This document shows positions 850 to 43,093 of a DNA stretch of 43,243 bases, one piece after another; positions within the stretch are counted from its first letter, which is position 1; every line of letters starts with the position of its first letter. The notes beneath the pieces were generated by a model, which was not told the DNA's origin, ran no database searches, and saw only the letters and a program-made list of their open reading frames with translations. A program made the position numbers and the translations under genes. Source of the stretch: Gonapodya sp. JEL0774 (lineage: Eukaryota); contig JADIIX010000162.1 of assembly GCA_027604505.1 (NCBI GenBank), positions 1 to 43,243 of the forward strand. Reading direction: 5' to 3'.

Positions 850-926
850 CAGCTTGCATGACCCCCTTCACTTCTTAAAATCAAAAGAATGAAGCCCTGC
901 TTCGCTTTCGCTCAGCAAAACTTCGT
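850..926 (-). repeat. Right terminal inverted repeat
   Basis: CAGCTTGCATGACCCCCTTCACTTC...CTTCGCTTTCGCTCAGCAAAACTTCGT is the reverse complement of 1-77; all 3 differences are transitions at CpG. Confidence 0.9.
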
Positions 927-929
927 CTC

Positions 930-1410
930 TAAGTGGATAGGGCCCTATCGCATCACTGAGAAGGAGAGTGACAACATCTTCCGGCTCAGCCACATCAGCA
1001 CTGAGCACGTGAGTCGAATGTGCCGATACCAGCCATGGATCACGCAATACCTGCCTGATCCACAAAGGATGGCTGAGTTGGCCCAACCTGTTTCACCTGA
1101 GATCGCAGAGAGCGATATCACCCAAAAAGAGCTGGGACCAGATTTCCAGCCAACCTACGTTGTTGAGGCAATCCTTGGCAAGAAGGTAGAACCAGACACG
1201 CAGGGTGAACTTGTCAAGTACCTCATCACGTTTCCTGGGTACATGACCCCTGAGTGGCAGCCTGAAAGCCTCATCTCCGCAGATGAGCTCATTGACGCAT
1301 ACAAACGTAAGCACCCAGCACCCATTGGCAAGATCCTCACCCGCCGTGAGTGGAAGAAGGCATTTGAGAAGCGCCGCAAACTTTTGCAAGTGCAAGGCCT
1401 GCTGGAGTGA
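930..1410 (+). mobile_element. Ty3/Gypsy (chromovirus) pol 3' end: integrase GPY/F region plus chromodomain, interrupted
   Basis: KWIGPYRITEK (GPY/F motif), then YVVEAILGKK...VKYLITFPGYMTPEWQPESLISADELIDAY (chromodomain pattern). The first 14 codons of ORF 889-1410 come from the inverted repeat. Confidence 0.85.
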
Positions 1411-2604: not shown

Positions 2605-5255
2605 TTACGCCGCTACTCCCCACTTAGCACCATCCTGTGCCAATTGCTGCGCTTGATTGTGCCGGCCAATCTTCACCTGTCGAGGAGAATACAGTCAGTT
2701 ACAAGTACTCTAAACCCATCCCACCACAGAAAGACATCAACCACCATCACGATAACCATCAACTTACAAATACGACCTTGGGCATCCCAGGTTCATTCTT
2801 CAGATTCCACAACTTTTCAAGCAGGTCCCGGTTCTTCACCGGGCTTTTATCTTTCGTATGCCAGCCGTTGGCCTTCCACTCCTGTATCCACTTGTCCAGA
2901 CACTGGCCCAACACATAAAATGGAAGGACCCAAAGGAGAGGTAGGTGGGAGTTTAACAGAAGAAGTATTGTAGATTGATTATCAGGATTGAATTGGGAAG
3001 ATTAACTTTTCAAAGCACTCACATTGATAGCGTAACTGTTGTTTGTGTGCACACGGAGCTCACTGACCCTTGTGCCAGCCATTTCCATGGCTCGGTAGAT
3101 GGCCTTGTAATTTGAATCCAACCTGCTGTGAGATTTTCCACAAAATCACACCAGAATCAGACATTACCTGAAGCGCTGCGCGGTTGTTTTTGTTGTTCGC
3201 CGATTCCGCTGCAGTAGTGACCAAGGGTTCCGACACGTTCCGGGGGTCCTCCTCACCCCACCATACGCCAACTCCAGCCAGGGCACCGGCTCCCCCGTTC
3301 CCAGAGCAGGATCCGTGAATCCACACATTCGCTGGCGCTGCTCGACTTGATGAAGATCCGCGCAGAGAGAGCCGACCCATGTCGACATGAAGCGTGGTGG
3401 CATCGACTGTAACGGACTCGACGTATGGAGGTGGCAGCGCTTGACTTGGGCCATCCGTGTCTACCGTCGAGCTCTGCCTTAAAATCCGACTTGAGCCTGG
3501 AGTCCGCGACGCGTCGAACGCATTTGTCAAAGAGCTTGTCTCCGATGATCCCAGACGCTTCTTCATATCTGCTTGCATCACGCTCACCCCCGCCGCTGAT
3601 GTCGGTTCTATCTCCTCGTGAGTGGGCTTTTCCTCGTCCTCTTTCTTAACGCCTGCCAACCGTTGGAGTTTTGGCAGAAAGGCTGCCTGAATTGACTCGG
3701 ATTCGGCGGGAAGTGACACGCGACTAATCATCATGTTCATCCCCAGAGCATCTGCAACCACAGAATTGGGTGGAGTTGAATCTCCAATCTCTGCTGCAGG
3801 GAGAGGTTGCTGTCCGCCAATCCGTTCCACAAATCTCTTGGAATGGCCGTCGAATCTGACATACACAGATATGTCGCATGATGGGTAATCGAGCACCTCT
3901 GGATCAGGTGCATCCACCTCGTAGATGAGGACAGTGGGGTTGTTGGGCTGATCGATCCGCCGAGCCAATACCGGTTCGTTCAACCCAAATTGGAGATGGC
4001 AGCTCGTCGGGCTAAGTTCTTCTACTCAAACACACGAGGCCTTATGACCAGAGCTTTACAGGATGTGATGGCATGCACTCACGAGGATAAGTGTGCAACA
4101 TGCACTTGACCTTGAGACGCGTTCCAAAACAGAGGTCCACGAGAGGACTACCGGGTTGGACCAACTCGCATGGGTTCTGTAGTGTGTCAAGTGTGTGGCG
4201 CTGTCTTTTGAGCTGACTCAAAATGTACCTACCTCATGCATGGATTTCACGTGTTGGTCAAACTCCCTCTTCCGCGGAAATAAATTCTGCCAACCATGGG
4301 TTTGGTTGAGAAAAACGGGCATTTAGGCGCCATCCTGGTTTTCTGAGTAAGACTCACCTCCTCGGAGCACTTGCTACACATCCAGTGGTGCGAGACTTCG
4401 CAGAAGCTTTTGGTTCCACTCGCATGATTGTTGTAGACATTATTGTCCCATTCGAACCCTGGCCGACTTGACAATTAGCGGGTACTAGGTTGCCGGAGAA
4501 CAGGGAAAGAGAAGCACGTACCGTACAGTTTCAGAAACTCCTTCTTCCACTCCTTCTTGTCATGAGCGACGTTTAGGTGCCCTCGGAGATGCGTTGCTAG
4601 ATCGCACATGGTTGAATTGGTAAGATTGGTGACGGAAAAACCGTCTTTGGGCTGGCAGGTTACACTTTTCCCGCAGAATTTGCAGATATTACTTGTATTC
4701 TGAGGCAGGCGCGATGTGGACCAGTCAAAAGCGAACTCGGAGATCACTTCCTCGATTGAGAACTCTACTTACGTGTGTCGCTGCCATGCCATCACTTTCC
4801 CCGATTATTCCAGCAGACGATAGTGAGTACCGCCATGGCCCTCCCACTGGAGCACCTGATTGCGAATTACCGGGATCCGTCAACAGGGTCACCGACCTAG
4901 GCGTGGCGGAATGGGGGCCAACCCCCTGCGAAGCTTCGTCTTGCAGCGTCCACGAAGAGTCGAGCGAGTTTGCAGGGCTGCTGCCACTGTCCTTGCTGCT
5001 GTCCTGGCCGGAGTTGGCCCAAGGGTCCAGGGGGATGAAAGCACTCAAAGCGTAAACATCTTGGTCTGCCGGCTGGCCGTAGCGCTCAGATTCTTCTCCT
5101 TGGTGAGACCAGTGGAAGTCACCCGGCATGTAGAAATCAGCAGCAAGAGAGGTGGGGGACGTGGCGTGTGGCTGGAAGAACTGGGGGTCGTGAAGGGTTC
5201 TCATGCCAGGGATGGGCAACCCCGCGCTGCTGCTGTTGCCACGGTGGGATTGCAT
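2605..5255 (-). CDS. C2H2 zinc-finger protein with a C-terminal catalytically degenerate RNase H1 domain (about 9 exons)
   Basis: Hand-spliced exons: 5255-4773, 4699-4522, ~4458-4358, 4286-4233, ~4177-4084, ~4021-3168, 3103-3023, 2902-2768, 2676-2605, all GT-AG and in frame. Zinc finger [27 protein letters not shown]. RNase H motifs [84 protein letters not shown]..|[17 protein letters not shown]. Confidence 0.8.
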
Positions 5256-5810: not shown

Positions 5811-5820
5811 NNNNNNNNNN
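5811..5820. other. Assembly gap (10 N); further gaps at 29593-29602 and 30923-30932
   Basis: N runs, each adjacent to long G/C homopolymers and degraded sequence. Confidence 0.95.
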
Positions 5821-17660: not shown

Positions 17661-20600
17661 ATGCGCGGCACATTGCTGAGGGCAATCCTGGGACTGCTCG
17701 CTCTCTCCATCCTCCAAGTCCAAGTTTTCGCGATTGGGCCAGGAGGGGGGGGTGGAGGTGGTGGAGGCGGAGGTGAGCTCGCGAGACCGGGATACCCGAA
17801 TCGGAAGTCGGATCCAGCATCATTGGCGCATTTCTTCGCTCAGGAATCGTAACGACGACATCCGCGACGTGAGTTCTTTGGCCTTGGCCTGTCATTATTA
17901 TCGCGCCCCCGCCCTGATACCCCACACCTTACCTGCCCCGCACTCCAATTCTTGGCAGCAAAACCTCGAGTACGACATCGCGAACTAGCAGTACGACTTC
18001 TAAAACAGCTACAACAACATCGACGACCACTCAGACGTAAGAGCTTTGTTTGGTAGAGTCAAACCTGTTTGATCGCATTCAACCACGACAATATCTGTTT
18101 GTCGAAATTTCAGGAAAACAACATCGTAAGTTACATATGATTTAAATACCAATTGTCAAACCACAGAAAAGTTTCTGACATAAGTTCACGTTAAGGCTAA
18201 CACAGAAGACAAGCTCAACCTCTACGTAAGTCGTGCCTGACCTGCAATCATCAGTCCCTTGAAAATCAAACAGCTTTTGCTTGGCTCAGCGGCACGCTGA
18301 CGACTACAGCTACAATCACGTAATTATTCTGAATTTGGGTGCGGGCTGGTTGGTGTTCTCACACTTTTTCGCATTGAACTACTGTCACAGCTCCACCCCC
18401 AGTACTTCCACCGAGAAAACCACGACCGAGACCACAACGTCGCAAACGCCCACCACCACCGAGACCCAGACAACGAGCACTGAATCAACCACCTCGGAAA
18501 CACCGACAACTACGGAGAGCACGACTTCCGAGACTCAAACCACGACTACGGAAAGCACCACTTCAGAGACACCAACGACCACCACAGAGAGTACAACCAG
18601 TGAAACGCAGACCACGACCACCGAGAGCACTACCTCGGAAACTCCCACGACCACCACAGAGAGCACAACCAGCGAGACGCAGACCACGACCACCGAGAGC
18701 ACCACCTCGGAAACACCCACGACCACAACCGAAACAACGACTTCCGAGACTCAGACCACCACCACAGAGACCACGACCTCGGAAACACCCACAACCACCA
18801 CAGAGAGCACAACCTCAGAAACACCAACCACGAGCGAAACTGAAACGTCCACCACCGAGACCACGGAGACAGTGTCTTCAACCACTTCAATGACCATTAC
18901 CGAGACCACCCAGACTCCTGAAACGACGAGTTCAGAAACTACTGCAACTATCACGCCCACGACCTCCTCTCAATCGTAAGTGCAGGTGCTCGCAGCATCT
19001 GAAATACGTCATCTGATCTTGGCTGATGCTCACAGAACCAGCTCATCCGCCACCAAGACGAAAACGTTGGTGTTAGATTGACGATTTGCACTCTGTTAGT
19101 TTCCTTCTCACGGATTTCTCCCTACAGCACCTCTCCCACTACCACCAAATCTGTTACGACCACATCTCAGACTAAAACGAAGACGTGAGATATCGTTCAC
19201 CGTTGTAGTTTCTTCCATTTTATTGCGTTCTTACGCCACGAGTACTCCAGCGCAACCTCCACCTCTACAACAAAAACAAAGTCGACGACCACCCTCACGT
19301 GAGAATAACTTTAATATGTGCGATCATACGTTCCTGCGGGTAATTGCTCTCATAATTCTCCAGCACCACTAAAAGCAAGACTTCGACTTCCACCTCGTGA
19401 GTTCTCAGGAAAGCAACATTATACTCTCTCTTCGGAGACAGTCAAACAAGCTTCGCTGGCTCCAACAATGCTATTGGTTTCAATTCCACAGGGCGACCAA
19501 AACGGCGACATCAACTTCCACGAAATCTGCGACATCAACTGCGACCAAATCTGCCACTAAAAGCTCCACCACGACGGGGACAACCACAAAGTCCGCTACT
19601 ACGACTGCAACACCAACGCAGTCTTCTACCACCTCATATACTGCGAGTACCAGCAGCACGTTGACTATCACAGTGTCTAGTACGACGTCGTTTACTGAAA
19701 CGTGAGCCTGTTTGAATTGAAATTCTCCTGTGTTAAAACACAGCGATAACACGATGCGATTTCCTAGAACCACAACCTTTGAAACCCCCACAACGACTTC
19801 AGAAACGCTAACCAGCTCAACTGAGACAACGACTGAAAGTACCACCTCGGAAACGCCCACAACCACCACAGAGAGCACGACTTCCGAGACCCCGACGACA
19901 ACCACCGAAACAACTACATCTGAGACTACGAGCACCGAATCAACAACTTCGGAAACACCAACTACCACTTCTGAAACACAGACTACGACCACTGAGAGTA
20001 CAACCTCGGAGACCCCTACGACCACCACAGACAGCACCACTTCTGAAACGACCTCCACTGAATCAACCACGTCGGAAACCACCGAAACTGCTTCCACCAC
20101 ATCGTCCATGACGATCACGGAGACCACTCAGACGACAGAAACTCAAACGTCGGAAACTGGAACGACTAGCTCGGAAACAGCCACAGCGTGAGGGTTTCAT
20201 CGTTTCGATTGACCTGTGCTTTCTTTACCGAGCTTGTTATGGCACCACAGTGAACTCACAACCACTTCTATTGTCACGATTCCATTCATCCCGGCACTCT
20301 CCACATCGTGAGTAAAGCACCAGAGTGTTCGATCGTTGTCTTCTCTGAACTCACGAAATTAATCGTTCATCAGTTCCACTACCAAGCCCGGCAAGACCTC
20401 TACCACATCCCGAACCAAAACTAGGACGACGACAAAACGAGCAACTACCACAAAACCGAAACCCACAACCACGACAGTGACCACGAAACCCGCAAAAATC
20501 ACCACGACTATAAAGCGGTCGTGTGACACGATCTACGCATCATACACTGCAGGTAGTGCCATAACAGCCACTGACCAGGCTGATTGGGAAGCTTGGTGAG

Positions 20601-21314
20601 TTCCACCGATCTTGGCAACCCTCCTGAGAGCTTGTCTAACAAGAGTAATTTCTTTCCATGATCCAGGTCGTGCAAAACATGTAGGTTGCAGTCTCCCCAT
20701 GCCGCATTGTCATGCACGTAAATGACTTCTTACAAACGCGATGAAGGGTTCCCCCAAGGGATTGGAAAGTCACGAACTTGCGACACAATATATGATGCGT
20801 TCACAAATGGTGTCGCTATGACTACCCAGGACTTCGCGGACTGGGAAGCTTGGTGAGTGACTGTTTTGGAGTCCGTGGAACCCTGCCAGTTCATTGACAC
20901 CATGTCATCCGTTGACTGTGATTGTTGATACAAATTACAGGATCTGCAAGACATGTGAGTTAGTCGTCCGAGTTGCTCTCATGTGCACCAGGGTTTCTTA
21001 TGGTTCTCTTTGTGCTACGTCTCGGTGCCATTGTAGGGTTCCCGAGCGGCATTGGCTACGTTCGGAGCTGTGACACCATATATCAAGCTTATAAGATCGG
21101 CAACAAGATCACCTCACAAGACATCTCAGATTGGACTGCCTGGTAAGTTGTTGTTCCATGATGTTGATTTGGGTGTGTTCGTGCTGACGTGTTGAATTTA
21201 TTCTACATCCAGGAACTGCAAAACCTGTGAGTAAGACTTACATCTGTGTTTTCTTTGTATGCACTCATCATTTCTGTTATTCAAACAGGGTTCCCGATGG
21301 GCATTGGCAACTAA
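17661..21314 (+). CDS. Secreted Thr/Ser-rich mucin-like protein A with three C-terminal 40-aa Cys/Trp repeats
   Basis: Signal peptide MRGTLLRAILGLLALSILQVQVFA and poly-Gly, an intron at 17773-17843, many small Thr-rich exons, two (ET[P/Q]TTTTE[S/T]TTS)n blocks, then three R[ST]CDTIY...DWxAWxCKTWFPxGIG units. Stop TAA at 21312-21314. Confidence 0.85.
18415..18850 (+). repeat. Coding minisatellite, 36-nt/12-aa unit ET[P/Q]TTTTE[S/T]TTS (gene A block 1)
   Basis: Visible in ORF 18281-18979; protein repeat near-perfect, codons synonymously diverged. Confidence 0.9.
19780..20090 (+). repeat. Coding minisatellite, ET-type repeat (gene A block 2)
   Basis: Visible in ORF 19730-20191. Confidence 0.85.
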
Positions 21315-21982
21315 AGAAATCCAACTTTCGTACAATACAAGGACGGGAGAGGTTAGGTTATATGTGAACACGGGAAACTATAATACTTAGAACCCTACAA
21401 GGTGTACAACAGTAGACATAGAAGAGTGTTGCACGCGTATTACGAGCAGTGTGGCGCACACACCTTAAAGTGCCAGCTTGCCCTCAAAGCCAACAGTATA
21501 GCCTTCAGTCACTCCGTAGTACATAGCGGTTTTGATGTCCTTATCAGAATGTTCGGTCGGTGCCTGTGGACTGACGCCACTCGCAGGATTTCCCGAAATG
21601 GAAAGGGCGCTCTTCCCGCCATATTATTTCGAATTTCATCTGTGAGAGAGAAGGCCGCCCAATTAAATTCGTTACCCATCAAATTCGTTAACTGGCAAAT
21701 GTGTTATCCCGGACATCAATCTTTTGTCTTGTGTACATAACATTATTTACATCCTTCTGTTGCTCATATTCCCTGCGACACAGAGACTTCTCACGGCTGC
21801 CCGCTTCGCTTTTAAAACCATATATATCATTATTCAAGCATATGTACTAGGCAGTATTGATCCTATTTGGGCAAGGCGGAGCCTCAGTGACCCTGAACTG
21901 TGTGGAGAACTTCGTTTCCATTTGCGCACACAAAATCCGCGGACATCAGTAGTTTCACCCCCCACGCTTCAAAAGAAGAAGC

Positions 21983-24661
21983 ATGAGGACCACGAGCGCT
22001 CTGATCGTAGGTCTGGCAGTGGCCTTTATGGCGGTGATCCACCCGTCGAAAGCTGCAGTGGGTTCCGGCACCCAGTGTGTTGTTGACGGGGATTGCTACA
22101 ACCACAACTGTGAGTATCATGTTGTGCACCACAGCAGCACCTGTTTCCATGATGAAATGCCTGTGAATTGAATACTGGTCTTGATGGGCCATTTTCGGTT
22201 GGAAGGTCACCTCTGACGTTTCGAAACCTTAATCCATTCAGGTGACCTGATTCCCAGCGATAACGTCGGAGTATGCTACTGCAGCTCTTCCGGGTCTTGG
22301 TCGTGGAATTACAGTGAGTTCTCTACCTCTTTTTCGCTCATGGATTGTTACAGATTCTTATCGTGTCTTCAACGCCACACAGACATGAGATGCAACTTCG
22401 GAAAAGTTCAATACCGTTCAAACTGCATGGGGACTGGCGGCAACTGGCTCGATGTCTATCCTTCGAGGGCCTGCCCGCAAACGACCACGTGAGTACAGGG
22501 ACCACAGTCGGTGATGTTTCAACGGATTTGGACAAGACCTTGTATTACTGCAGGACACGAACAACGACCAAGACGGCCACCACAACGTACGTTGTGTTTC
22601 CTTTCTCACACTTGGTAGCTGATTTCCTTTTCTGAGTTGGTTCTCCGTGTTCATTCTTTTCCCCCACTCTATAACGTTCCATTTGGAACTTCAGGAAAAC
22701 AACCTCTTCCACGAAATCGTGAGCTTTCTCTTTGAAATACTCCAGAAAAAACTTTGATTCATCTGAGTCGTGCAAATATAGAACTACTACTACTGTTTCG
22801 ACCACCAAAACTCTACCGTCCACAACTACCACAGCAGCACCCAGCACCACAACCAAATCCACAACGAGCGAGACCCCAACCACCACCACGGAGAGCACAA
22901 CTTCCGAAACCCAGACCACAACCACTGAAAGCACAACCTCAGAGACTCCCACTACTACGACAGAGACCACCACTTCTGAGACCCAGACCACGACTACGGA
23001 GAGCACAACTTCTGAGACACCGACCACAACCACGGAGACAACCACTTCTGAGACCCAAACCACCACTACCGAGAGCACGACCTCGGAAACGCCTACGACT
23101 ACGACAGAGACAACCACGAGCGAGACCCAGACCACGACCACCGAAAGCACGACCTCGGAAACACCTACGACTACGACAGAGACCACCACGAGCGAGACGC
23201 AGACCACGACCACCGAAAGCACAACATCGGAAACTCCCACCACGACCACAGAAAGCACAACATCGGAAACTCCCACCACGACCACAGAAAGCACAACGAG
23301 TGAGACTGAGACGACTACCACGGAGAGCACCACAACCGAGACAACCAGTACTGAATCCACCACCTCGGAAACCACTGAGACCCCTTCCACCACATCTTCC
23401 CTGACAATTACCGAGACGACAGGAACCGAAACAACCAGCTCAGAGACTTCCACCGCGTGAGCGACCTTTGCTGTTGTATTCAGCTCTATCTGTTTCTGAT
23501 TTAACCCGTTTATGCGAATTCAGAGAGCCAACGACCGCCCTCATAGTTTCCTCAGCTCTCTCTTCTTCGTGAGGCCGGCCGAGAGCGATTTATTCCTTTA
23601 CTATTGACCTTTTATACTCTCATCATTTCTTTAGTACGACTGCTAAGCCTGGCAAGACGTCCACTGCGACAAAGACGAAAACCTCCACCAAGACAAAAAC
23701 GGCCACAGCTACGAGGACCAAAACGGCAACCACTACAAAGCTGCCGAAGGTTACCACGACTGTGACCACCAAGCCGGCAAAGATCACCACGACTGTTACC
23801 ACCAAGCCGGCAAAGATCACCACGACTGCTACCACCAATCCAGCAAAGATTACAACCACCATCAAACGTACGTGCGACACGATTTATTCGACATTCCTTG
23901 CGGGTGGTGCCATTACAGCGACAGACCAGGCCGATTGGGAAGCTTGGTGAGTTTACGGAAACCGTAAACAATGTAACTTGCAAAGGTGATCCATCTCGGT
24001 TGATTTTTGCTCACATAGGTCTTGCAAAACATGTAAGTTGTTAATCCCAATTGAGTCTCCCTCCCACTAATAGCCGATGGTTTGCTATTCTCAGGGTACC
24101 CGGGTGGCATTGGAAAGCCACGCACATGTGACACCATCTACACTGCGTTCTTGAGTGGTGTCACCATGACCACTCAGGACTACTCAGACTGGGATGCATG
24201 GTGAGTTTGACAATAGGGAATGAGAACCCAGGCACATGCTAACTGTTAGATATCAATCCATTTCAACCCTTCCAGGAACTGCAAAACTTGTGAGTCCGCT
24301 GCCAACTTTGCATGCCCCCGTAATTTTTCGACTTCCTTCGTGGCTCTCTAACACCTTTGTGTATCAGGGTTCCCGCACGGCATCGGCTACGTTCGTAGCT
24401 GTGACACCATTTACAAGGCGTTCAAAGCGGGCACCGCGATGACTGCGCAAGACTCAGCAGATTGGGCGGCGTGGTGAGTGATAAGCAAATCTTCCTGCTG
24501 ATATGCTTCAATTGACCATTTATGTAATCGGTTCATTCGATAATTTGTTGATTCATACAGGAACTGTAAAACTTGTAAGTAAATTTGGCGATGGAGAAAG
24601 GGTTATCATCTCTTATTCTTTGCGTTTTTGTTCAGGGTTCCCCACCGGTATTGGCAAGTAA
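21983..24661 (+). CDS. Secreted Thr-rich mucin-like protein B with an 8-Cys N-terminal head and three C-terminal 40-aa Cys/Trp repeats
   Basis: Signal peptide MRTTSALIVGLAVAFMAVIHPSKA, a Cys-rich head over three exons, an ET-repeat exon (~22781-23456), TTKPAKITTT repeats, and three C-terminal units with the same intron positions as gene A. Stop TAA at 24659-24661. Confidence 0.85.
22860..23380 (+). repeat. Coding minisatellite, 12-aa ET-type repeat (gene B)
   Basis: Visible in ORF 22732-23460, with alternating ETP/ETQ units. Confidence 0.9.
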
Positions 24662-27159
24662 TGGACAGGCGAATTTTTAATTTTTGCGATGTACACGATG
24701 GGAGAGATTGGCGTTGCGATTCTCACTGAAGACGTTGGCGTTTTGATGGCATTCTCATCGTTTTGGATTATCGTACAGAACTTACAGCGTAAATTAGTTG
24801 CAGTAGAGCCATCTCACTGATGGCGTACAAACATCGTAACATTGGGCTAATGCCAGAATCAGACTGTTCGATCATTTTGCGGGTGAACGAAAAGACTGGG
24901 ACCTGAATCGAGACAGTGGTGTTGAAAAACCTCTTTTCCCGGTAGTCCATCGAATGTGCTATATCGAGCGTGAATCATCATTCGAATTGGATGTGACGGG
25001 GGAGAGAGATGCTGCAAGTAAGATGAGAGTGCATCGGGAACGCCAAACAAACCGTCTGAGAGCGATATTGTGTAGAATGTGCTTCATCGCCACCAGAATT
25101 ATTGAGCAAGCCCAAGTCACATCAATTTCAATGATATTTTTTCAACGCCATCACGATCGGTGCGTGTTCCGAAAGATTGTGTTACCGCATTCGCAGCCGC
25201 TGCACGCCGATTTTCATGAAAACAATGCGCCTCCCATGACTTCTCGTGGTCACTGTTAGACGATACGACCAGCAGGTCTTCTGGATTCGAAGTTACAGGC
25301 AATAAAGGCAACTTTCAAACAGCCAGAAGTCAAGTATTCCGCAAAGAAGTAAGGATTGTCGACGAAACCAGCTAGCGGAATTTCCATGATAGCACAGCTT
25401 CTCCTCTAAACGTCGAAAGACTCCATATCGCTTGGAAGACAATAGGTCTCAGAGTTAAGACATTCCCGTCAAAGACTCTGATTGTATGCAGGTATAACTG
25501 GGGTCACAAGGATTCCAAAATAGCAAATGTGCACGGTAGTATGGCAAGTTGGTGAGAAAACGTCACTGTAGGTTCTCTATCGTTGTTGTCGGGTTTGAGA
25601 CCACGAGGGCAAAGTTTTCATTTACGCACTCCCGAGTTTCGAGGCAGCCCAGAGATTTAGAAGATAGGAGCATCCGTGCGCACGGTATATCCAATCGAAC
25701 TCGAAATGCTTCTCGAATGGAGCGTCTTTCGATGTTCGATTCGAGTAATAGGTTCTCTTTTTCTGCGGACGAGCAAGAACATGCGGTACATCTGGTACCA
25801 ACTCGTTTCGGAATTTCTTTTTGACGTTGAGCGGTAGGGAATACAAAACTCAAGACGCTGATGGGATACCTTTGTTTGTTTGGGTTGTGCACCGAGATGG
25901 GAAGAAGGAGGGGGTGCCACACGCAAAAACGACAAACTTTCATTGGCTCAACGACGATCCGTTCGGAGCTTGTTTGGGTCGTATCCAAGCCGATGCCAAG
26001 ATTTTTTGAAGCCTGGATACTTCGAGAGGACAACCGCGGGACTCCCTAGCCGCCATAGACTTGATGGCAGTTAACATCATCCACAGCACCAGCACTCAGG
26101 GAACCGATGGGCACTCCAGATTGATAACGAGTCCGAGTTTGGAGTTCTTCCGAAGGTGCCCGGTTACCTCTCTCCTTCGAACGACTGCCAGTCACAAGAA
26201 GTGGGAACAATGTCAGACGATGTCCACAGTTCTGCACGAGCCTACCGAACGTCATCCCCAAAGAGTGCTGACGTGTTCTTCCTCTCTTTCGCCACACCTC
26301 GCGAGTCTTCTGCGTCGTCTCGCATCACGCGTGCAAGACCTCCAGAATGACCAAACTGTTCACAAAACTTCCCAAATCACTCTCAATGCTTGAAGCGAAT
26401 CCTTTGTAGTTCTCTATAGGCTGCGTGTCGGTTGGACTCTTTGCATAATCTTTTGCATGTGAATATTTCTCATGGAGCAGGAATCGCGAAGGAAAGCATT
26501 ACGGGATCGCATCCATCCCCGCCACATTCACTCCGCTGACATTCCAAGCTCTCGTTCACCAAGAGGGTGTAATTATGTCAGAGTTGATCAGTTGAGACTG
26601 AAGGGCCACTCACTCCTCATAGCATTTTGTCAACGAGAACAAGACTTCTGCATGAAATTCCAACGAATCTTTCCTCGTGGGCTAGTTTTGCTAGAGCGGT
26701 GCGATCATCTTTCGTGAATGAAGTGAATGAAAATGATTAATCTACTGTACCAATAATCTGGGCCAAAGTGGGGGTTTAGAGGAGCCTGTCAGTGTCTGAA
26801 CCATCATTCCAACACACCATAATGCGTGAGTTTCCCACGTCCCAGAGACACCGCGGGCGCGATTTTGCTTCGCTCGATTGATTCTAAGATGGATTCTCCG
26901 GTCGGGATATCTGATTCCTCACCGTCGCTCACCTTTGCTGGCTGCGGCGCACCTGTTCTCTTTCATCGCGAAACTCTCTGATCACTTTCGGAAACACATC
27001 CAATCGACAGACTATCACTGCTACCTCGTCTTTCTCGCTCTCGTCTCTTCTGTAAGTTTGATACGGTCTTGCGAGTGGGTTTTTGATGGCGTCTGGTCCT
27101 AACCCAAAATCTCCCCTTCACTCCATTCACTCTCACAATCCAAAATATACACTTCTTTC

Positions 27160-28683: not shown

Positions 28684-31600
28684 GCAGGCAGCGGAGGGCG
28701 CGCAGTGGGCAACGAGAGGAACTTCTGACGTTCTTGTCCATCGACTTTCTTTCATTCCTGCTTCTTTATTTCGGAGGGTATGGCTTCTTTGTTATTGTTT
28801 GCTTTGCCTTTACATTTAGTCTCCTAGGGGGTGGGCATCGGGGTTGTGGGTTTGGACAGAGGATTTGAGCTGTGTTCAGGGGATATGGGGCGAGAGGGCT
28901 GAGGTTTGATGAACGATCGTCGGCTCGGAGGGCGAGCGCGGACTGGACGATCGTTAAGCTCGGAGGGCGAGCGGGGGACCTTCCCTGCCAGATGCAGGAC
29001 GCTTGCACATTGGAACAAGGAGTGCCGATGATATCACTTGATCAGCACTCTGAATACCACCCGGCACACCACTACCAGAATTTCGTCGTACTCCGCAACT
29101 GCGCTGTGCTCTCTTTCCTGGCCGCGGGGAATTTCGTGTCGCCATCCATCCTCTCCCCCGCCCCGCCAACCCCTCCGTCCTCCTCCCACCTCACAACCTC
29201 AAGCAGGGAGTGATCTTCTTTGGCTTCGCATCTATCAAGCATGCACCGATATCACGGACTCGTCAACATCCTGCACCACGTGCCCCGTCAAACGTATTCC
29301 GCTCTCACACCTACTCCAACTCCGATCCCACACCACTCCCCGATGATCCCAATCCTACTCCCACTTCCACTCCGTTGACGATCTGATTCTGGCTCGCTCC
29401 ACACTTGATCTCGGTCGGCATCCCCACGCCATACATCTGGTCCCAGTTTCTGCAGAGCCGCCACAGCAATCGGCCAAGGACGCCATCTCGCTCCGCCGCC
29501 TCAGCGCCATCGGCACCTCAACTCTCAACCGAGAAATTTCCCTCAACAACCAGGCCTGCATCAGGGCGGGGGGGGGGGGGGGGGGGGGGGGGNNNNNNNN
29601 NNCCGCCGCCTCCGGGCCATGGGCACCACAACCCTCAACCGTTAAATTCCCCCCCCCCCCCCGGCCCCCCCCCCCCCCCCCCCCCCCCTCCTTCATCCTC
29701 CAACGTGTCCCTAACCTCATCCGCAACCACGCGCTCCGAATTGTCGGCTTCGACTTCTTCTGCCGATTCTCGTACTTTCCGCCCCCACCACCCACACACA
29801 CCGCCCCGCCCCCCCCCACATCCCAACAGAAACGCACCTCAACCGAAAATATCTATGCGCGCGAGCTCCATTTGATTCGACAACTGCGCCAGATACCTTG
29901 TCCTGTCACGCCTCGAACAGATAGTCAGGAAAGGCCTCATCAGACTCCTAGTGGGTCGACATCATTGATCTCGGAGTCACACGGCAATTGATTGCAGTCC
30001 AGTCGAATGGGCAAAGTTGTTGATTAAGCTCACATCACTCTCTGTACACCTTACCCGACGTTCCGTGTGCTTGTCAGGAACCCTCGCGGGTCCCGATTCC
30101 ATCATGCCCCAAAGGATGCTGCGTGCAGCGTCTCCTCTTTGGGATTGCGTGGATCGGCGGTGGGTTTTGAGTGAGAGAAAGGTATGAGTGCCGTGCCAAT
30201 AGGTTGGAAGTTGTTGATCCCGCTCACCGGACTCTCCGTCAATTATAACCGACCCATAGTGAAGACGACGCCTACATCGAATCCCCATCCTCATCCCGTG
30301 CCGAGAGACGGCTCTTTATCCACGACATGTAGTGGAGAGGTGCGATTCATTATGTTGACGGTGAGAATTACCGTGCTGTCATGGAGTCTCCGCGTGGTAT
30401 CTTAAACTCACCTTAGATGCGATTTGCGCGGCCTCACTTCAGTTGACAGAACTCCGAGCCGCAACTCCCCTCACGTTCACCGTCTATCGACGACTGCTCG
30501 CTTGTGAGAAGGTCGGTGGCATCCAGTTTGAGCTCCGCTACACACCCCATCCTGGGCGTGCATCCAGCACGTTTGGGATGGGCCCATGTGTGGTTTGTGC
30601 TCCTGCGAACCCTGGCCCGGGCGTACATCCAGTACGTTTAGGACAGGATAATGCGCGGACAAGACTGGCTGATCATTCGACCCGAGATACCGGAGAATGG
30701 GACATCACGTGACAATACGATACAGTACCGTGACGGCGGATTGGTGACGTAGTAGCCGGGACGGGAGGAAGAGCAGTTCGCTCCGTGTAGGGGGTCGGAT
30801 AGGAGGAGGAGGGTGTACTCCGTGATGGGTTTATGGAGGGATGCGTTGGAGTGATGTCGGGAGTGGGGAGAGGTTGGGGGGGGGGGGGGGGGGGGGTTTT
30901 AAACAGACAAAAAAATATATTAANNNNNNNNNNCCCCCCCCCCCCCCCCACCGCAAGGACTAAGTATATTATTAATCTGGACTAATCTGTTCACTTCAAG
31001 TGGGAGCTACACCGGGTTTTATGGTCTCTTGCATGTGTATAACAATGTTTTTGCTAAATTTATGATATTGGCAACGGTTGAGTGTTCTCCGCGTCGGAAG
31101 TGCCAGGAGGGAATGTAACCAAAAAATACATCACAATTCACAAACACGAAGATCGTCAAGTCGCACAGCTATGACCCTGACGATGGACGGCGACAAAGGG
31201 GAGATTCTAATAGGAGATTCCATGTATTACATAAAGCTGGTTTGGTATGTAGCAGTGCTCTCGTGAGTGTGCTATGGATGAGGGATGATCGGCGGGGGAG
31301 ACACCACTACGCTGTTCGTGGAAACCAGCACAGTAATTCTCTCCACCAAATGTAAATACGACGCTCGGTGTTCCTCGTTGGGCAAAACGTCGTTATCTGA
31401 CAGTTGTGAGTAGATAGCAGAAGAACATCAGAAACCCAGGAGGAAGAGCGGCAACCTGAAGGAGCCGGCGGTTGAACCTTCTCCGACATTCTCGCCAAGA
31501 ATGTTAATGGCAGGAGCAGCAAAATAACAACAGCAAATTCAGCAAAAATTTGCAAATCTCCACCACCGGCACCATAGCGTACTGGCCAGAGTTTGTCGCC

Positions 31601-31994: not shown

Positions 31995-33979
31995 ATGGCC
32001 GACGAAGCGGATATAAACCCATGCCCTGCTTCAATTGATGTGATGACATATGAGTACACACCTGCAGGTGAATTGGATTTTCTTGTCGGAAGTCCCTTCC
32101 GCTGAGTCCCTCAGGAAACCGCTTTCCAGATAATGCATTTCTGTTGGTCTGTGCCGCATTGGTCATGATTATGACTCCTGGTGAGTGTCCGCCGCCGAGC
32201 TCGACGTTGGTAACTCGCTTGCGCGGTCCTCAACCTTGCCCTTAACGTGGTCGATACTTCCAAAGGTCTTGGCTTCTACTACAGTGGAATGGCACGCTCC
32301 AAGAACGCCCTTACTCTTATAATGCTGTGTTTTATTTCCTATGCTGTTGTAACGGTCCAAGTGAGACTCTGGTTCAATTTTCAATGTTATGTAACGTCAT
32401 TAACTCCCGAGGACTCCTCATCAGTGGTTCCTTTTTGGATTCTCCCTCACATTTTCGGATACGGGAAGTTTTTTCTGGGGCGACTGTGCTCACTGCGTGT
32501 TCCGGAACGTCGGCCAGAATCTCTTGAAGAACGCACCAACAATTCCCATCATCACCTTCCAATTCTACCAGCTCATGTTTGCCATCATTACTCCAGCTCT
32601 TATTTTTGGATCTGCGGCTGAGCGTGTTCGGATCCTGCCGTCCGTGGTGTTTGTTTTTGTGTGGTCAACTGTTGTGTATTGTAGGTGTGACTTGCGTCGC
32701 GGTTTTGCGCATTACTTTTGACCCATTCATCTCCTTGTGCCAGCACCAATTGCATACTGGGCCTGGTCTGCGAACGGGTGGCTCAACATGATTGGTTACT
32801 TAGACTTTGCCGGTGGTACACCGGTTCACGCATCATCTGGTTTTGCTGGTTTGGCGCTGGCACTTGCTCTAGGGCGCAGAAAACACACCGAGGATTTCAA
32901 GGCCTCATCAATCGCAAACGTATTTCTTGGCACTGGTGAGTTCTTGACCATCTACTCGAAACCCGTTCTTCAAAACACCGATTGCCGATCATGGTGCTGC
33001 TCTCAACTCTCAGCCCTCCTCTGGTTTGGATGGTTTGGTTTCAACGGCGGATCTGAGCTCGCTTCCAATGCTCGTTCCGCCAATGCGATGACCGTCACCA
33101 ACATATCTGCGGCTTTCGGAGGCCTCGTGTGGATGCTCATGGATTACATCACTCTTCGGAAAATGTCCGGTCTTGGCTTCTGCTCTGGTGTAGTTGCCGG
33201 ACTAGTGGGTATCACCCCAGCCTCTGGATTTGTATCGCCTGCATCTGCGTTCGCGATCGGGGGTATCGTTTCGGCTGTCTGCAACACCATGGTGCGACTG
33301 AAGGCTTACTACATGTACGGTGAGTGGCCCAGACTCAGGACAGGAATGAGCAAAGTTCAATCAATCATATCAGTCGCATAATTTTTTGCTGCTCATTCAG
33401 ACGACACACTCGATTCCTTCAATGTCCATGGGATAGGAGGCGTGACTGGTGACATTCTCACAGGCGTGTTCGCCCAGAGGTCCATCAAAGCAATGAGTGG
33501 GTGACTTTTCTGTATTCTCTCCCGCTAACGCTTGGATCACAAATTTCCAACCTCCGTTCAGATTTGTACCCCAACATTGGTTCTGTGAACCAAGCGTGCC
33601 TGGATACCCTTCCTGCCCTCGGCTGGCTCGACGGCAACTGGATCCAAGTAGCAAAACAACTAGCTGGAGCGTCGGCAGGGGCTGCGTGGTCTTTTTTGGT
33701 GACGTATGCTATTGTGTCCATCATGCAAAAGGTGACAATTATAAGTTGTCAACTTCATTCTGCTCGAACTGCTCATTTTGTTGTGTCCCTTGTCAGATCC
33801 CGGGCCTGCAACTTCGGGTCAGTCAATGGACGGAAGTTCTCGGCTCCGACCAGGGAGAGATGGGCGAAATGTCGTACGATTATGTGGAATCTCTCAGCCA
33901 CGTTCCGGATCGGAGCAAATCACCACCTGGGTCCGCCGTTGTCCACAATGCTTCTATACACCGGCTACCGAGCAGATAG
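31995..33979 (+). CDS. amt: Ammonium transporter, Amt/Mep family
   Basis: Spliced MADEADINPCP..A|DNAFLLVCAALVMIMTP|GLGFYYSGMARSKNA, FQFYQLMFAIITPALIFGSAAERVR, LDFAGGTPVHASSG, LLWFGWFGFNGGS, AGLVGITPASGFV, DDTLDSFNVHGIGG. Both pore histidines are present. Confidence 0.96.
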
Positions 33980-34328
33980 GTCTTTTTCCTTTCGTTGGTT
34001 TGGCTGGACTCTACACAGAAAAGGTCTCTGCCCATTCAAGTCTCGTTGTGAGGAGTTTGGAGGAGGCAGTCATCGTCATGGGAATCTGCTTCTACATTCA
34101 TCATTATATAATTAGATTATTTCTACGTGTATAATTCTACATATGATATCATGGCATTTCTTATCTCGACCGTTAGTCAACTTGAAATGGACGCAGACAA
34201 ACCAATTATCTTCCATAACGCCACGTCCACTCAACTGAACCAGCAGTTCCGAAGCTCCCCGTCCACGGGCTTATCGGACCTGTGGTAATACCAGTATATA
34301 CCCTGGAGTCCGGGCCTGGGATCGTCCC

Positions 34329-35700
34329 ATGAACGGACTGAAAGGCTCTGAATCGTCATCACCCCAAGCGCGGATATGGGATCGTCAATTGATTGCAGCA
34401 ATTGAAGATGGAAATCTCGATTTGGTCAGAATAGCCCTGGCTCGTGGTGCTGACGTGAACTCCGCTACCAAAATTTTGACAGTTAGTATAAAACTGGAAA
34501 CGGGAGAGACCGAGACAGACTCGCGGCCTGCCGAATCGGCCCTCGCATTGGCGATTCTATCCGGAAGAACAGACATCCTGCATTGCCTGCTTGAAAATGG
34601 TGAGTTCAGTCAGGATTTGCGTGACCACTCACCGACATTCTATTCACGGTCTACACTGGTTCCGGTTCTTCGCGGATTCTTCCGTTGCGCTTATGATTCC
34701 TTGTCGGGACTTTTTAATGGCAAAACAAGGGGCGGACCCCCGAACGCCGATCGAATGGCCGATTCCGGAGATCTGGGAAAATTGGACTGGGGAAGGCGGC
34801 CTCTTGGACCGAGGTCGTTGGAGATTTGAAAACGCGTTGGAGCTCGCTCTCGCTGTTGGTCGACCAGAGCTGCGCTGCAACCTTCGCGGAGTGACTTTGA
34901 ATTTCGACAACCCGTCATCCCTTGACGAGGTTTCCGCGCGAGTGACTCGAGATCCAGATTCGAACGTTGCACAACTTCTTATCCGGTTTGGTTCTCCCGT
35001 CACTGCTCTCAGTCTTGAGGCTATACGTCAGCTCAGGGATGAGGGCCGGCGCGAATTCGCAGAGTTAATCTCGGCGGACATTTTCCTTGACGCGTTTTCT
35101 GAGCAATTGCGATCTAACGCACGATTGCAAGGCGTAATTGATGACCGCATCCGTGAGATAACGGAGCTCGAGCAATTGCTCCTTGATCGTGCTTCCCGGT
35201 TCGCAGAATTGGAGCGAGAGTTCCTTCGAGAGAAACAACGGAGCGCGTCACTCGCTGATGAGCTTGCTCGCAAGGATGCCGTGGTCGCGAGTGTGCGAGG
35301 AAGTGTACCACCGGACCGACTGGAAGTTGTTCCGAAGGTGCGGCAGCGCTGCTATGCCGTCCACTCGTTCACCGCGGTTCGACGAGATGAAGTCGCACTC
35401 ACAGTTGGTGACGAAATGCTTTGCATCTATGAGTTCAAAGACGGCTGGGTGGCGGTGAGTAAGCTTTTTGCGTGCGTGCTTCGTGAGGTTTGTGCGTAGC
35501 TCAAATTTGTTCTGGTCGTCAACATTCCCATGCACAACCTGGCACTTTCGCCGGCACACTAGGGTACCAATAAAACAACTGTACAAACTGGCTACGTACC
35601 GAAAATTTGTTTGTCAAGCAGCCTTCTTGACGGAGACCGAGTGCTGGGGTTGCCTGAGCGTTCTGATTCCCTCTTCTTCACATTTACTACGCACCACTAA
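34329..35700 (+). CDS. Ankyrin-repeat, coiled-coil and SH3 domain protein
   Basis: LIAAIEDGNLDLVRIALARGADVN and ESALALAILSGRTDILHCLLEN|GADP (ankyrin); IREITELEQLLLDRASRFAELEREF (coil); YAVHSFTAVRRDEVALTVGDEM..FKDGWVA|GTNKTTVQTGYVPKICL (SH3). Introns ~34600-34729 and ~35455-35562. Confidence 0.85.
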
Positions 35701-41700: not shown

Positions 41701-43093
41701 AAGTGACGAAGTTAATCCAGCTGCTAATAATCAAAGTGGTTCAACACCCGTGGGCACGAGGCTGCTCAACCTTTCGCTCGTTCTTGCGACCCTAATGCAG
41801 CGTTTTGAGTCTACTTTGTTCTTGCCAGTTCGGTCGACTTCGGGACTCTCTTCCTATCCTCCTGCACTGGATCTTGTCCGAGCCCTGCTTATCCGAACTG
41901 AAGCTACCAGCGCTGCGTCTGTTGATGTTTTGAGGATCGCAATGCAGGTTGCGGATGGCGCCCTCGTATCGTGGACTCAGGCGCTTGCGGCGAGTGTTAT
42001 GGAGGGGAGCAGGTTGGTTTGGAAGATGGAGGATGGGGTGAAGCTTGAGGGCCTCGCAGTGGTGCTCGGTGCGTTTGCTCGTCATGAAGACAAAGAGGTT
42101 GGACGGTTCTCGAAGAGAGCGGCGGAAATGGCGAGAAGTGTGGGTGAGATTGGGAAAGTTATGGCAGCAGTCCAAGATGGAGGAGCCGACTCTGTTCGTG
42201 AGATTGATTCCTCTGGAGATAATTCGGCGGTGGAAGCTCGTTATGCAATGGCAATGGCCGACGCTAGGTCACCGGTTGCACCATTCCGGGCCAAAGGCTT
42301 ATCAGCCCTGCGAAATCTTATCCTCGATGACGAACGTGCCGTCTCGACTTTTCTCGCTCAACGATTAAGTGATGTCATCGAGGTGATCCTGGATGCTCTG
42401 GGTGATCCAGACTCGTTCGCGTACCTCACCGCGGTTCGCACACTGTCCGCCTGCGCCGAAGCATACCCTCGAGAGGCGTTGACAACAATGGCTCGAGAGT
42501 TTGGGAACCCGACCGGTGATAAGGACCGTCGATTGCGAATTGGAGAATCCATGCTCCAATCGATGCAGAGAGCGGGAGAAACGGTGGCCAAAGTAGCGGA
42601 CGTACTTGCTCCAGCGATGCTGGCAGTACTGAATGCGCAACCCGGGGACGAAGACCTTGCATCATCAGCCCTGTCTCTCATGGGCGCGGTAGTCGAAGGG
42701 GGGTTAGTGTGGGCAGGTCCGCGCCTTGCGGAAGTTGTGACGGACGCCGCTTGTGGCGTCATTGAGGTGGAGAATGGAAAGTCGGTGAAGCTAACAAGAG
42801 GTGGTGTGTGGGTGTTGCTTTGCACGGTGAGAGGTGTGAGGAGGATGTTGGAGCGGAGGAGTACAGTCAAAGCAGGAGATTTTTTGGAAAGGACTACTGT
42901 CACGCGAATGAAGCGTTGTCTCGAGAATGTCAGAGACTGTTTTGTGCTAGCAACATTGAGTTATCGACGAGATACCCCTCTAGTGGACAACCTTCCAGAT
43001 CCAGATCAGGACTGGGATGTTGCGAAATCTCACGCACGTATCGCGCTTTCTGAACTTGCTGAGATTGTTTTGCAGAATAGCAGAAAATTTTGA
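38729..43093 (+). CDS. RTP1: RNA polymerase II assembly factor Rtp1 / TANGO6-like helical-repeat protein
   Basis: ORFs 38729-40195 and 40343-43093 join in frame through a phase-2 intron 40099-40248 (LFES|LPPATLLPSL). C-terminal ARSPVAPFRAKGLSALRNLI..LDALGDPDSFAYLTAVRTLS..RLRIGESMLQSMQRAGE resembles the Rtp1 C-terminal domain. True start uncertain. Confidence 0.8.

What the first reader, a model, noticed from the sequence alone, without database searches (positions are those of the whole stretch)
20516..24661. Unrecognised 40-aa Cys/Trp module, six copies, capping two secreted mucins
Seen after splicing: RSCDTIYASYTAGSAITATDQADWEAWSCKTWFPQGIGKS, RTCDTIYDAFTNGVAMTTQDFADWEAWICKTWFPSGIGYV, RSCDTIYQAYKIGNKITSQDISDWTAWNCKTWFPMGIGN (gene A); RTCDTIYSTFLAGGAITATDQADWEAWSCKTWYPGGIGKP, RTCDTIYTAFLSGVTMTTQDYSDWDAWNCKTWFPHGIGYV, RSCDTIYKAFKAGTAMTAQDSADWAAWNCKTWFPTGIGK (gene B). 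Invariant: two Cys, three Trp, DTIY, DxxDW and GIG. Neither protein has a transmembrane or GPI tail. Inference: a small disulfide-bonded aromatic-rich domain acting as a glycan-binding or wall-anchoring module. It does not fit the Cys patterns of CBM1, CBM18, WSC or CFEM, nor LysM or Pir repeats, as I know them.
Basis: partly seen in the sequence, partly recalled or inferred. Interest (0 to 1): 0.8.

Follow-up and report, generated by a model that had tools for sequence, protein, structure and literature searches.

The report
Undescribed helical anchor module on chytrid mucins
Two neighbouring fungal genes encode threonine-rich secreted proteins that each end in three copies of a 37-residue Cys/Trp module matching no known protein family; the same module sits on many plant-wall-degrading enzymes of Gonapodya, so it is likely a new sugar-binding or surface-anchoring tag.

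Summary
Six modules of about 37 residues, on a 40-residue period, close two tandem Thr-rich genes (A 17661-21314, B 21983-24661). Each module is split by two introns that flank a 14-nt microexon. The splice model has no cDNA support. It rests on canonical splice sites at all six microexons, on introns that have diverged to the random level while exons stay conserved, and on the match between the spliced product and database proteins.

No Pfam family fits. The single DUF5419 hit is below its cut-off and appears in only 1 of 14 modules. No solved structure resembles the predicted fold, a small three-helix unit with pLDDT 81.

A profile search of 1.84 billion proteins found nine proteins, and a second search raised the total to 18. 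All come from Gonapodya or from two chytrids. Twelve of the 18 are carbohydrate-active enzymes (GH5, GH7, GH16, GH26, GH45, GH28, CE4, CE8) and one is an M60-like peptidase. Each carries 2-5 modules separated from its other domains by Pro- or Thr-rich linkers.

My reading is that this is an undescribed non-catalytic targeting module, most likely glycan-binding. I infer that it tethers enzymes and mucins to a cell-wall polysaccharide. The main rivals are a plant-substrate binding module and a dockerin-like module. Binding itself is untested.

The parts
17661..21314 (+). Gene A: signal-peptide-like N-terminus, Gly run, Thr-rich mucin body, three C-terminal modules. Modelled as 21 exons and 742 aa.
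   Evidence: The exons upstream of 20374 come from my own heuristic splice search and are approximate. The module exons were curated.
21983..24661 (+). Gene B: signal-peptide-like N-terminus, 8-Cys N-terminal domain, Thr-rich mucin body, three C-terminal modules. Modelled as 14 exons and 557 aa.
   Evidence: all 13 introns are GT..AG and the frame is open from ATG 21983 to TAA 24659-61.
20516..20766 (+). Gene A module 1 (exon part 20516-20595, microexon 20667-20680, exon part 20747-20766)
   Evidence: local HMM score 68.9
20773..21056 (+). Gene A module 2 (20773-20852, microexon 20941-20954, 21037-21056)
   Evidence: score 71.3
21063..21308 (+). Gene A module 3 (21063-21142, microexon 21213-21226, 21289-21308); stop codon at 21312-21314
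   Evidence: score 71.9
23867..24114 (+). Gene B module 1 (23867-23946, microexon 24019-24032, 24095-24114)
   Evidence: score 65.6
24121..24387 (+). Gene B module 2 (24121-24200, microexon 24276-24289, 24368-24387)
   Evidence: score 73.6
24394..24655 (+). Gene B module 3 (24394-24473, microexon 24561-24574, 24636-24655); stop codon at 24659-24661
   Evidence: score 75.2
22064..22488 (+). N-terminal 8-Cys domain of gene B, spread over three exons. No known family.
   Evidence: Its first six Cys align with the N-terminus of P0001 (28% identity over 64 aa, pairwise E 2e-5). Pfam finds nothing there in P0001.
18391..18975 (+). Gene A, first Thr/Ser/Glu/Pro repeat exon (36/72-nt tandem array at 18451-18831)
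19768..20187 (+). Gene A, second Thr-rich repeat exon (123-nt repeat at 19840-20079)
22782..23456 (+). Gene B, Thr-rich repeat exon (36/72/144-nt tandem array at 22860-23342)

Best explanation
The six repeats are copies of an undescribed, roughly 37-residue, predicted three-helix module that likely acts as a non-catalytic glycan-binding anchor.

Shown by the calls:
- The module is real coding sequence under purifying selection.
- It is restricted to Gonapodya and two chytrids.
- It matches no Pfam family and no solved structure.
- It occurs in 2-5 linker-separated copies per protein, at the N-terminus, internally or at the C-terminus, on cellulases, a mannanase, pectinases, GH16 and CE4 enzymes, an M60-like peptidase and Thr-rich mucins.

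Inferred:
- The two invariant Cys form one disulfide that staples helix 1 to helix 3.
- Some of the invariant aromatic residues (three Trp and two or three Tyr/Phe/His in 37 residues), together with three invariant Asp, form a ligand face.
- Tandem copies give avidity for a polymeric ligand.
- The ligand is a polysaccharide. I favour the fungus's own wall, so that secreted enzymes stay on the hypha in water.
- On gene B, the triple module replaces the GPI anchor of a classical fungal adhesin layout (N-terminal Cys domain, O-glycosylated stalk, C-terminal wall anchor).
For: Coding reality:
- All six microexons have AG..GT splice sites.
- Between genes A and B, exons are 243/319 (76%) identical and microexons 36/42 (86%). 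Introns are 266/513 (52%) identical, against 48 +/- 3% for shuffled introns.
- Of 119 module codons, 35 differ only synonymously and 30 non-synonymously.

Family:
- 9 proteins at E<=0.001 among 1,835,955,588, and 16 at E<=0.01 in the second search, giving 18 distinct proteins.
- All come from Gonapodya prolifera, Gonapodya sp. JEL0774, Cladochytrium tenue or Zopfochytrium polystomum.
- A local HMM finds 60 module instances in 20 proteins, 2-5 each.

Partners:
- GH7: P0006. GH5: P0010. GH45: P0013, P0017. GH26: P0011. GH16: P0004, P0014. CE4: P0003, P0005, P0016. CE8: P0002. CE8 plus GH28: P0018. That is 12 of 18 proteins.
- P0015 is an M60-like peptidase.
- P0004 also carries a CBM1, which suggests the module does something other than CBM1's job.
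- Pro- or Thr-rich linkers flank the modules (sequences).

Fold:
- Single-module model: pLDDT 81.4 with three helices.
- Tandem model: the same pattern repeated, pLDDT 79.2.

Protein ends: both window proteins lack a transmembrane segment or a hydrophobic C-terminal tail.
Against: - No binding has been measured, and no ligand can be named from sequence.
- The predicted fold is all-helical. Most carbohydrate-binding modules I recall are beta-rich, and helical appended modules include protein-binding dockerins.
- The alignments behind the models are shallow (14 and 10 rows), so the fold is provisional. I could not inspect coordinates, so surface exposure of the aromatic residues and closeness of the two Cys are unverified.
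- The partner enzymes act on different polymers, which fits a shared anchor but equally fits a dockerin.
- The splicing has no RNA support.
- The 38 seed modules of the local HMM were picked with a motif pattern, so their invariant columns are partly forced by that choice.
Confidence: 0.52

Rival explanations
1. Substrate-targeting module like CBM1. The module would bind a plant cell-wall polymer, most plausibly cellulose, and concentrate enzymes on the substrate. The mucins would then be substrate-coating or adhesive proteins.
For: The partner spectrum (GH5, GH7, GH45, GH26, pectinases, esterases) resembles that of CBM1 in other fungi (the CBM1 spectrum is recalled). Size, linker-separated arrangement and aromatic richness are also CBM1-like. 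A review describes Gonapodya prolifera as rich in cellulose-, hemicellulose- and pectin-active enzymes (PMC6690862, passages read).
Against: P0004 already has a CBM1 beside three modules. CE4 and GH16 enzymes commonly act on fungal walls (recalled). Non-catalytic mucins with an N-terminal Cys domain and a C-terminal triple module look more like wall-anchored adhesins. The helical fold prediction is unlike CBM1.
Confidence: 0.22
2. Dockerin-like module. The repeats would bind a protein partner, an unidentified cohesin-like scaffold, and assemble enzymes and mucins into a surface complex, as the tandem 40-residue dockerins of anaerobic gut fungi do.
For: The module comes in tandem copies of about 40 residues with Cys and aromatic residues, on many unrelated enzyme families and on non-catalytic proteins. 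It co-occurs with a true CBM1. The predicted fold is helical, as in bacterial dockerins (the dockerin fold is recalled).
Against: No Pfam CBM_10 (dockerin) match in 0 of 14 modules at E<=10. No candidate scaffold is known. The module has two Cys, against the four to six I recall for fungal dockerins.
Confidence: 0.15
3. A structural or processing element with no ligand, for example a protease-resistant cap, an oligomerisation unit or a secretion/folding aid. This could be linked to the K-R or K/R-R-Q motif that precedes first modules.
For: A dibasic motif directly precedes the first module in the window genes and in many homologues. No ligand has been shown.
Against: Position-independent, multi-copy, linker-flanked use on a dozen enzyme families is the signature of a targeting module. 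Aromatic and Asp residues are strongly conserved.
Confidence: 0.08
4. Not real: the spliced modules are an artefact of wishful splicing, or the two genes are pseudogenes.
For: No RNA evidence. No protein from these two loci appeared among the hits of the protein searches.
Against: The splice architecture is identical six times, and exons are conserved while introns are at the random level. The spliced product reproduces the contiguous motif seen in database proteins of a related species. Both reading frames are open from ATG to stop.
Confidence: 0.03

Closest known systems
CBM1 (fungal cellulose-binding domain, Pfam PF00734)
   Same: Small (under 40 residues), Cys-stabilised and aromatic-rich. 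Joined by Pro/Thr linkers to either end of cellulases, mannanases and esterases.
   Different: No sequence match (0 of 14 modules), although the same library finds a genuine CBM1 in P0004. The module has two Cys, against four recalled for CBM1. The predicted fold is helical rather than a beta wedge. It occurs in 2-5 tandem copies rather than one.
Fungal dockerin / CBM10 of Neocallimastigomycota (Pfam PF02013)
   Same: Modules of about 40 residues in tandem copies on many enzyme families and on non-catalytic proteins of a zoosporic fungus.
   Different: No Pfam match. Fewer Cys. No scaffold partner is known. The host lineages are Monoblepharomycota and Chytridiomycetes.
Bacterial SLH domains (triple helical wall anchors)
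   Same: By logic only: short helical modules, typically three in a row at one end of surface proteins and secreted glycanases, that tether them to a wall polysaccharide (recalled). The window genes carry exactly three.
   Different: No sequence or fold match. The organism is a eukaryote. The modules are shorter and carry a Cys pair.
Fungal adhesin layout (N-terminal binding domain, Ser/Thr-rich stalk, C-terminal GPI wall anchor)
   Same: Gene B has an N-terminal Cys-rich domain, a stalk of about 45% Thr, and a C-terminal element.
   Different: There is no hydrophobic GPI-signal tail. The triple module would replace it, which is an inference.

Membership tests
Pfam DUF5419 (PF17441) | Score at or above the curated cut-off of 31.8 bits, reproducibly across copies | tested here: not met
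   20.1 bits and E 7e-4 in 1 of 6 exon pieces, which is 1 of 14 modules. Absent from whole-protein scans of the 18 homologues (9 scanned at E<=0.1, 9 at E<=0.001).
CBM1 (PF00734) | Match to the family profile | tested here: not met
   0 of 14 modules at E<=10. Positive control: a CBM_1 is found at P0004 residues 88-117, outside the modules.
Fungal dockerin / CBM10 (PF02013) | Match to the family profile | tested here: not met
   0 of 14 modules at E<=10; 0 of 6 exon pieces.
Fungal dockerin / CBM10 (PF02013) | Fold like the solved dockerins | tested here: inconclusive
   Foldseek against the PDB gave 0 matches at E<=10. VIA-align against 48,161 chains gave a best Z of 3.7 and no chain at Z>=5. 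Short helical models score poorly, so an unlisted family is not excluded.
Fungal dockerin / CBM10 (PF02013) | Binds a scaffoldin/cohesin partner | not testable with these tools
   No candidate partner has been identified.
CBM18, WSC, CFEM, LysM, SLH (Pfam models) | Match to any of these profiles | tested here: not met
   The only families returned at E<=10 were DUF5419 (1 of 14) and FOLN (1 of 14, E 0.024).
Carbohydrate-binding module in the CAZy sense | Contiguous module within carbohydrate-active enzymes | tested here: met
   12 of 18 module proteins carry GH or CE catalytic domains.
Carbohydrate-binding module in the CAZy sense | Discrete fold | tested here: inconclusive
   AlphaFold pLDDT of 81.4 (single module) and 79.2 (tandem) with the same helices per copy, but from shallow alignments.
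Carbohydrate-binding module in the CAZy sense | Demonstrated carbohydrate binding | not testable with these tools
   Needs pull-downs, glycan arrays or calorimetry.
Existing CAZy CBM families not covered by Pfam | Sequence match to a family member | tested here: inconclusive
   No dbCAN or CAZy library was available. A profile search against all PDB chain sequences gave a best E of 1.4, which covers only families with solved structures.
Secreted mucin-like protein | Signal peptide plus a long Thr/Ser-rich, Cys-free body | tested here: met
   The only hydrophobic window is at the N-terminus. The middle region is 51% Thr plus 18% Ser with no Cys in gene A, and 45% Thr plus 13% Ser in gene B, whose eight Cys lie in the modelled N-terminal domain. 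Signal-peptide cleavage and O-glycosylation are inferred.

The most novel reading that the evidence does not exclude
The module founds a new class of binding module: a single-disulfide, all-helical unit that zoosporic fungi use to display a whole plant-wall-degrading enzyme set, plus mucins, on their own surface. That would be an independent, eukaryotic counterpart of SLH- or dockerin-based surface display. It would have stayed hidden partly because its 14-nt microexons defeat gene prediction.
Probability: 0.2. Interest if true: 0.85.

Novelty: new variant of a known kind. Interest (0 to 1): 0.64.

Why it matters
Appended binding modules decide where secreted enzymes act, and new families are rare. 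This one marks at least 12 carbohydrate-active enzymes across eight catalytic families in Gonapodya, an early-diverging fungal lineage used to argue that ancient aquatic fungi already digested plant-type walls (PMC4494064, abstract and passages).

A defined ligand would explain how an aquatic fungus keeps its enzymes from diffusing away. It would also add a small, disulfide-stapled tag for enzyme engineering.

The repeated 14-nt microexons are a concrete annotation hazard. In the public gene models, four modules break off after the D-W motif and four models are fused to neighbouring genes. The two window genes were not among the proteins returned.

Tried and rejected
- Own genome: none is held.
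- Sequencing runs: no RNA holder was listed and no run was listed, so splicing could not be checked with reads.
- Word-index protein search with a 44-aa window ORF: no candidate. A 35-aa query had been too short.
- Phage tblastn: best E of 9. PHROGs: two hits at E 0.06 and 0.08. Both rejected as chance.
- DUF5419: rejected, being below its cut-off and present in 1 of 14 modules. FOLN, 1 of 14 at E 0.024, is also chance.
- ESM Atlas: no usable feature hit for the exon piece or for P0006 residues 52-134. Structure rows were generic TPR/Sel1-type helices with TM <= 0.48.
- PDB by sequence: best E 1.4.
- Foldseek against the PDB: 0 matches for the single module. For the tandem model the best was E 6 with TM 0.24.
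- VIA-align wide: best Z 3.7, with 76 chains at Z>=2 and none at Z>=5. I saw no binding module or dockerin in the 50 rows shown.
- Metagenome contigs: 29 pattern matches, none confirmed by tblastn.
- Earlier findings of this scan: nothing by sequence, place or words.
- Literature: searches for Gonapodya with 'carbohydrate-binding module', with 'dockerin' and with 'pectin' plus 'CBM1', for Monoblepharidomycetes with wall, secreted and novel-domain terms, and for the genome paper gave no listed title or abstract on such a module. I read passages of only two papers. The matched passages of PMC6690862 do not mention it. PMC4494064 has 0 occurrences of 'CBM' or 'binding module' in its main text. 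Supplements were not read.
- Neighbouring genes: Pfam on 12 large window ORFs found no carbohydrate-active enzyme, so there is no enzyme cluster around the mucins.
Full report
**Observation**

Reading 20000-25200 and a motif scan of all six frames show six copies of a unit that begins R-[ST]-C-D-T-I-Y and runs to D-W-x-A-W. Three lie at 20516-21314 and three at 23867-24661, all on the + strand and nowhere else in the window.

Each copy runs into an in-frame TGA right after the second Trp, so the modules exist only after splicing.

The same architecture recurs six times:
- a first intron splits a Trp codon as TG|G;
- a 14-nt microexon follows (20667-80, 20941-54, 21213-26, 24019-32, 24276-89, 24561-74), preceded by AG and followed by GT[AG];
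- a second intron splits the next Trp codon as T|GG;
- a 106-nt exon then carries the end of one module and the start of the next.

The microexon pattern has no match on the - strand.

**Gene models**

Gene B was curated by hand. It has 14 exons, all 13 introns are GT..AG, and it is open from ATG 21983 to the stop at 24659-61, giving 557 aa.

Gene B consists of:
- a hydrophobic N-terminus;
- an 8-Cys domain;
- a body that is 45% Thr and 13% Ser;
- three modules.

Gene A runs from ATG 17661 to the stop at 21312-14, modelled as 21 exons and 742 aa. Its exons upstream of 20374 come from a heuristic of mine and are approximate.

Gene A consists of:
- a hydrophobic N-terminus;
- a Gly run;
- a Cys-free body that is 51% Thr and 18% Ser;
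- three modules.

Neither gene has a second hydrophobic segment or a hydrophobic C-terminal tail. The Thr-rich bodies are 36/72-nt tandem arrays.

**Is the splicing real?**

No RNA data could be obtained. Three lines of evidence stand in for it.
- Conservation between genes A and B. Exon parts are 243/319 (76%) identical and microexons 36/42 (86%). The twelve introns are 266/513 (52%) identical, against 48 +/- 3% for shuffled introns.
- Codon changes. Of 119 module codons, 54 are identical, 35 differ only synonymously and 30 differ non-synonymously.
- Match to database proteins. The spliced product restores, as one contiguous stretch, the motif D-W-x-x-W-x-C-x-T-W-[FY]-P-x-G-I-G seen in proteins of a related species.

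**Known families**

- Pfam on six exon pieces gave only DUF5419 for one piece, at 20.1 bits against a cut-off of 31.8.
- Across 14 modules (8 full modules from homologues plus 6 window pieces), DUF5419 and FOLN each hit 1 of 14 and nothing else hit at E<=10.
- Whole-protein scans of the 18 homologues leave the module regions uncovered.
- As a positive control, the same library does find a true CBM_1 in P0004, outside its modules.
- PHROGs, phage tblastn, PDB sequences and the ESM Atlas gave nothing credible.

**Relatives**

A 35-column profile of the window's own exon pieces (A1) was searched against 1,835,955,588 representative proteins. It found nine proteins at E<=0.001, the best at 7e-41.

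A second search used a profile of full modules (A2). It found 16 proteins at E<=0.01 among 7,991 scored candidates. Together the two searches give 18 distinct proteins.

By the sources' names, they come from Gonapodya prolifera JEL478, Gonapodya sp. JEL0774, Cladochytrium tenue and Zopfochytrium polystomum (taxonomy). A scan of metagenome contigs confirmed none.

A local HMM finds 60 module instances in 20 proteins, 2-5 per protein. Its 38 seeds were picked with a motif pattern, so the seed columns are partly forced by that choice.

The window itself matches the contig that encodes P0019 of Gonapodya sp. JEL0774. No returned protein maps to the two mucin loci at high identity. I therefore infer that the public annotation lacks or mangles them.

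**Domain partners**

Pfam scans give the following partners.

| Partner domain | Proteins |
|---|---|
| GH7 | P0006 |
| GH5 | P0010 |
| GH45 | P0013, P0017 |
| GH26 | P0011 |
| GH16 | P0004 (also carries a CBM1), P0014 |
| CE4 | P0003, P0005, P0016 |
| CE8 (six stretches) | P0002 |
| GH28 plus CE8 | P0018 |
| M60-like peptidase | P0015 |
| No family | P0007, P0008, P0009, P0012 |

So 12 of the 18 proteins carry a carbohydrate-active catalytic domain.

P0001 has the layout of gene B: an N-terminal Cys domain, a mucin body and four modules.

The modules sit at the N-terminus, internally or at the C-terminus, flanked by Pro- or Thr-rich linkers.

Several public models look damaged around the modules:
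- Four modules stop at profile positions 25-30, where the microexon lies in the window genes (P0001 no. 4, P0002 no. 3, P0003 no. 2, P0007 no. 2).
- Three models start inside a module (P0007, P0013, P0018).
- Four models are fused to unrelated neighbours: a histidine kinase, a WD40 protein, an amino-acid permease and a 2-hydroxyacid dehydrogenase.

Whether the homologues share the intron positions could not be tested, because no eukaryotic genomic DNA could be fetched.

**Fold**

- AlphaFold2 on A2 gave pLDDT 81.4 and pTM 0.57, with helices at residues 7-15, 22-30 and 33-36 of the 46-residue target.
- A tandem pair (A3) gave pLDDT 79.2 with the same pattern in each copy.
- Foldseek against the PDB gave 0 matches for the single module. 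For the tandem model the best was E 6 with TM 0.24.
- VIA-align against 48,161 chains gave a best Z of 3.7 (rmsd 4.6 A over 43 residues, or 3.6 A over 38), with none at Z>=5.

The fold is therefore a small helical unit with no informative relative. The alignments are shallow and I could not inspect coordinates.

**Mechanism**

The evidence shows a conserved, position-independent, multi-copy, linker-flanked module shared by many secreted enzymes and by non-catalytic mucins. That is the signature of a targeting module.

I infer the following:
- The two invariant Cys tie helix 1 to helix 3.
- Some of the invariant Trp, Tyr and Phe residues, together with three invariant Asp, form a ligand face.
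- Tandem copies give avidity for a polymeric ligand.

I commit to glycan binding at confidence 0.52. I favour the fungus's own wall as the ligand, for four reasons:
- CE4 and GH16 enzymes commonly work on fungal walls (recalled).
- P0004 already has a cellulose-binding CBM1.
- Retaining enzymes on the hypha makes sense for an aquatic fungus.
- Gene B has the N-domain, stalk and C-terminal-anchor layout of fungal adhesins but lacks a GPI-signal tail.

The rivals are a plant-substrate binder like CBM1 (0.22), a dockerin-like protein binder (0.15), a ligand-free structural or processing element (0.08) and an artefact (0.03).

**Novelty**

The five literature searches returned no title or abstract describing such a module. 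I read passages of only two papers, a review of zoosporic-fungal enzymes and the G. prolifera pectinase paper. I read no supplements and had no CAZy/dbCAN or InterPro library.

I rate it a new family within a known kind, the appended targeting modules of secreted enzymes.

Noticed in passing
window 22064-22488 (gene B exons 1-3): An N-terminal domain with eight Cys. Its first six Cys align with the N-terminus of P0001 from Gonapodya prolifera (28% identity over 64 aa, pairwise E 2e-5). Pfam finds nothing there, so it is a second unrecognised domain on the same protein.
   Followed up: partly
window 20510-20518 and 23861-23869; homologues P0002, P0003, P0005, P0006, P0010, P0011, P0015, P0016: The first module is preceded by a dibasic motif: I-K-R abutting the module in the window genes, and K/R-R-Q two to three residues upstream in most enzymes. 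This is a candidate Kex2-type processing site. In the CE4 proteins, cleavage there would remove an N-terminal region of about 170 residues.
   Followed up: no
window 18114-18125, plus 17844-17868, 18196-18225, 18290-18319, 19036-19065, 22554-22586, 22695-22718: The mucin bodies are also broken into very short Thr-rich exons of 12 to 33 nt. The gene A exons come from a heuristic model and need RNA support.
   Followed up: partly
database proteins P0001, P0003, P0014, P0017: Public gene models of module-bearing proteins are fused to unrelated neighbours: a histidine kinase, a WD40 protein, an amino-acid permease and a 2-hydroxyacid dehydrogenase. These are probably prediction errors near the module exons.
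   Followed up: partly
window 23753-23850: Three 93%-matching copies of a 33-nt unit, encoding an 11-residue Thr/Lys/Pro repeat, lie directly upstream of gene B module 1.
   Followed up: no
window 31995-35496: An ammonium-transporter gene corresponds to P0019 (Pfam ammonium transporter plus ankyrin, by the precomputed list). It is 100% identical over 102 aa, and its contig has the same length as the window.
   Followed up: yes
window 862-1407 and 3063-4025: An ORF with a sub-threshold chromodomain hit (E 1.2e-4, 22.4 bits against a cut-off of 25.1) and a nearby long minus-strand ORF with no Pfam match. Possibly a retroelement remnant.
   Followed up: no
window 5811-5820, 29593-29602, 30924-30933: Three 10-N assembly gaps. 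The one at 29593 lies inside a long poly-Gly/poly-Pro coding-like stretch.
   Followed up: no
window 40235-43093: A 952-codon open frame with an RTP1_C1 domain (E 1.8e-22), a factor for nuclear transport of RNA polymerase II. Unrelated to the finding.
   Followed up: no
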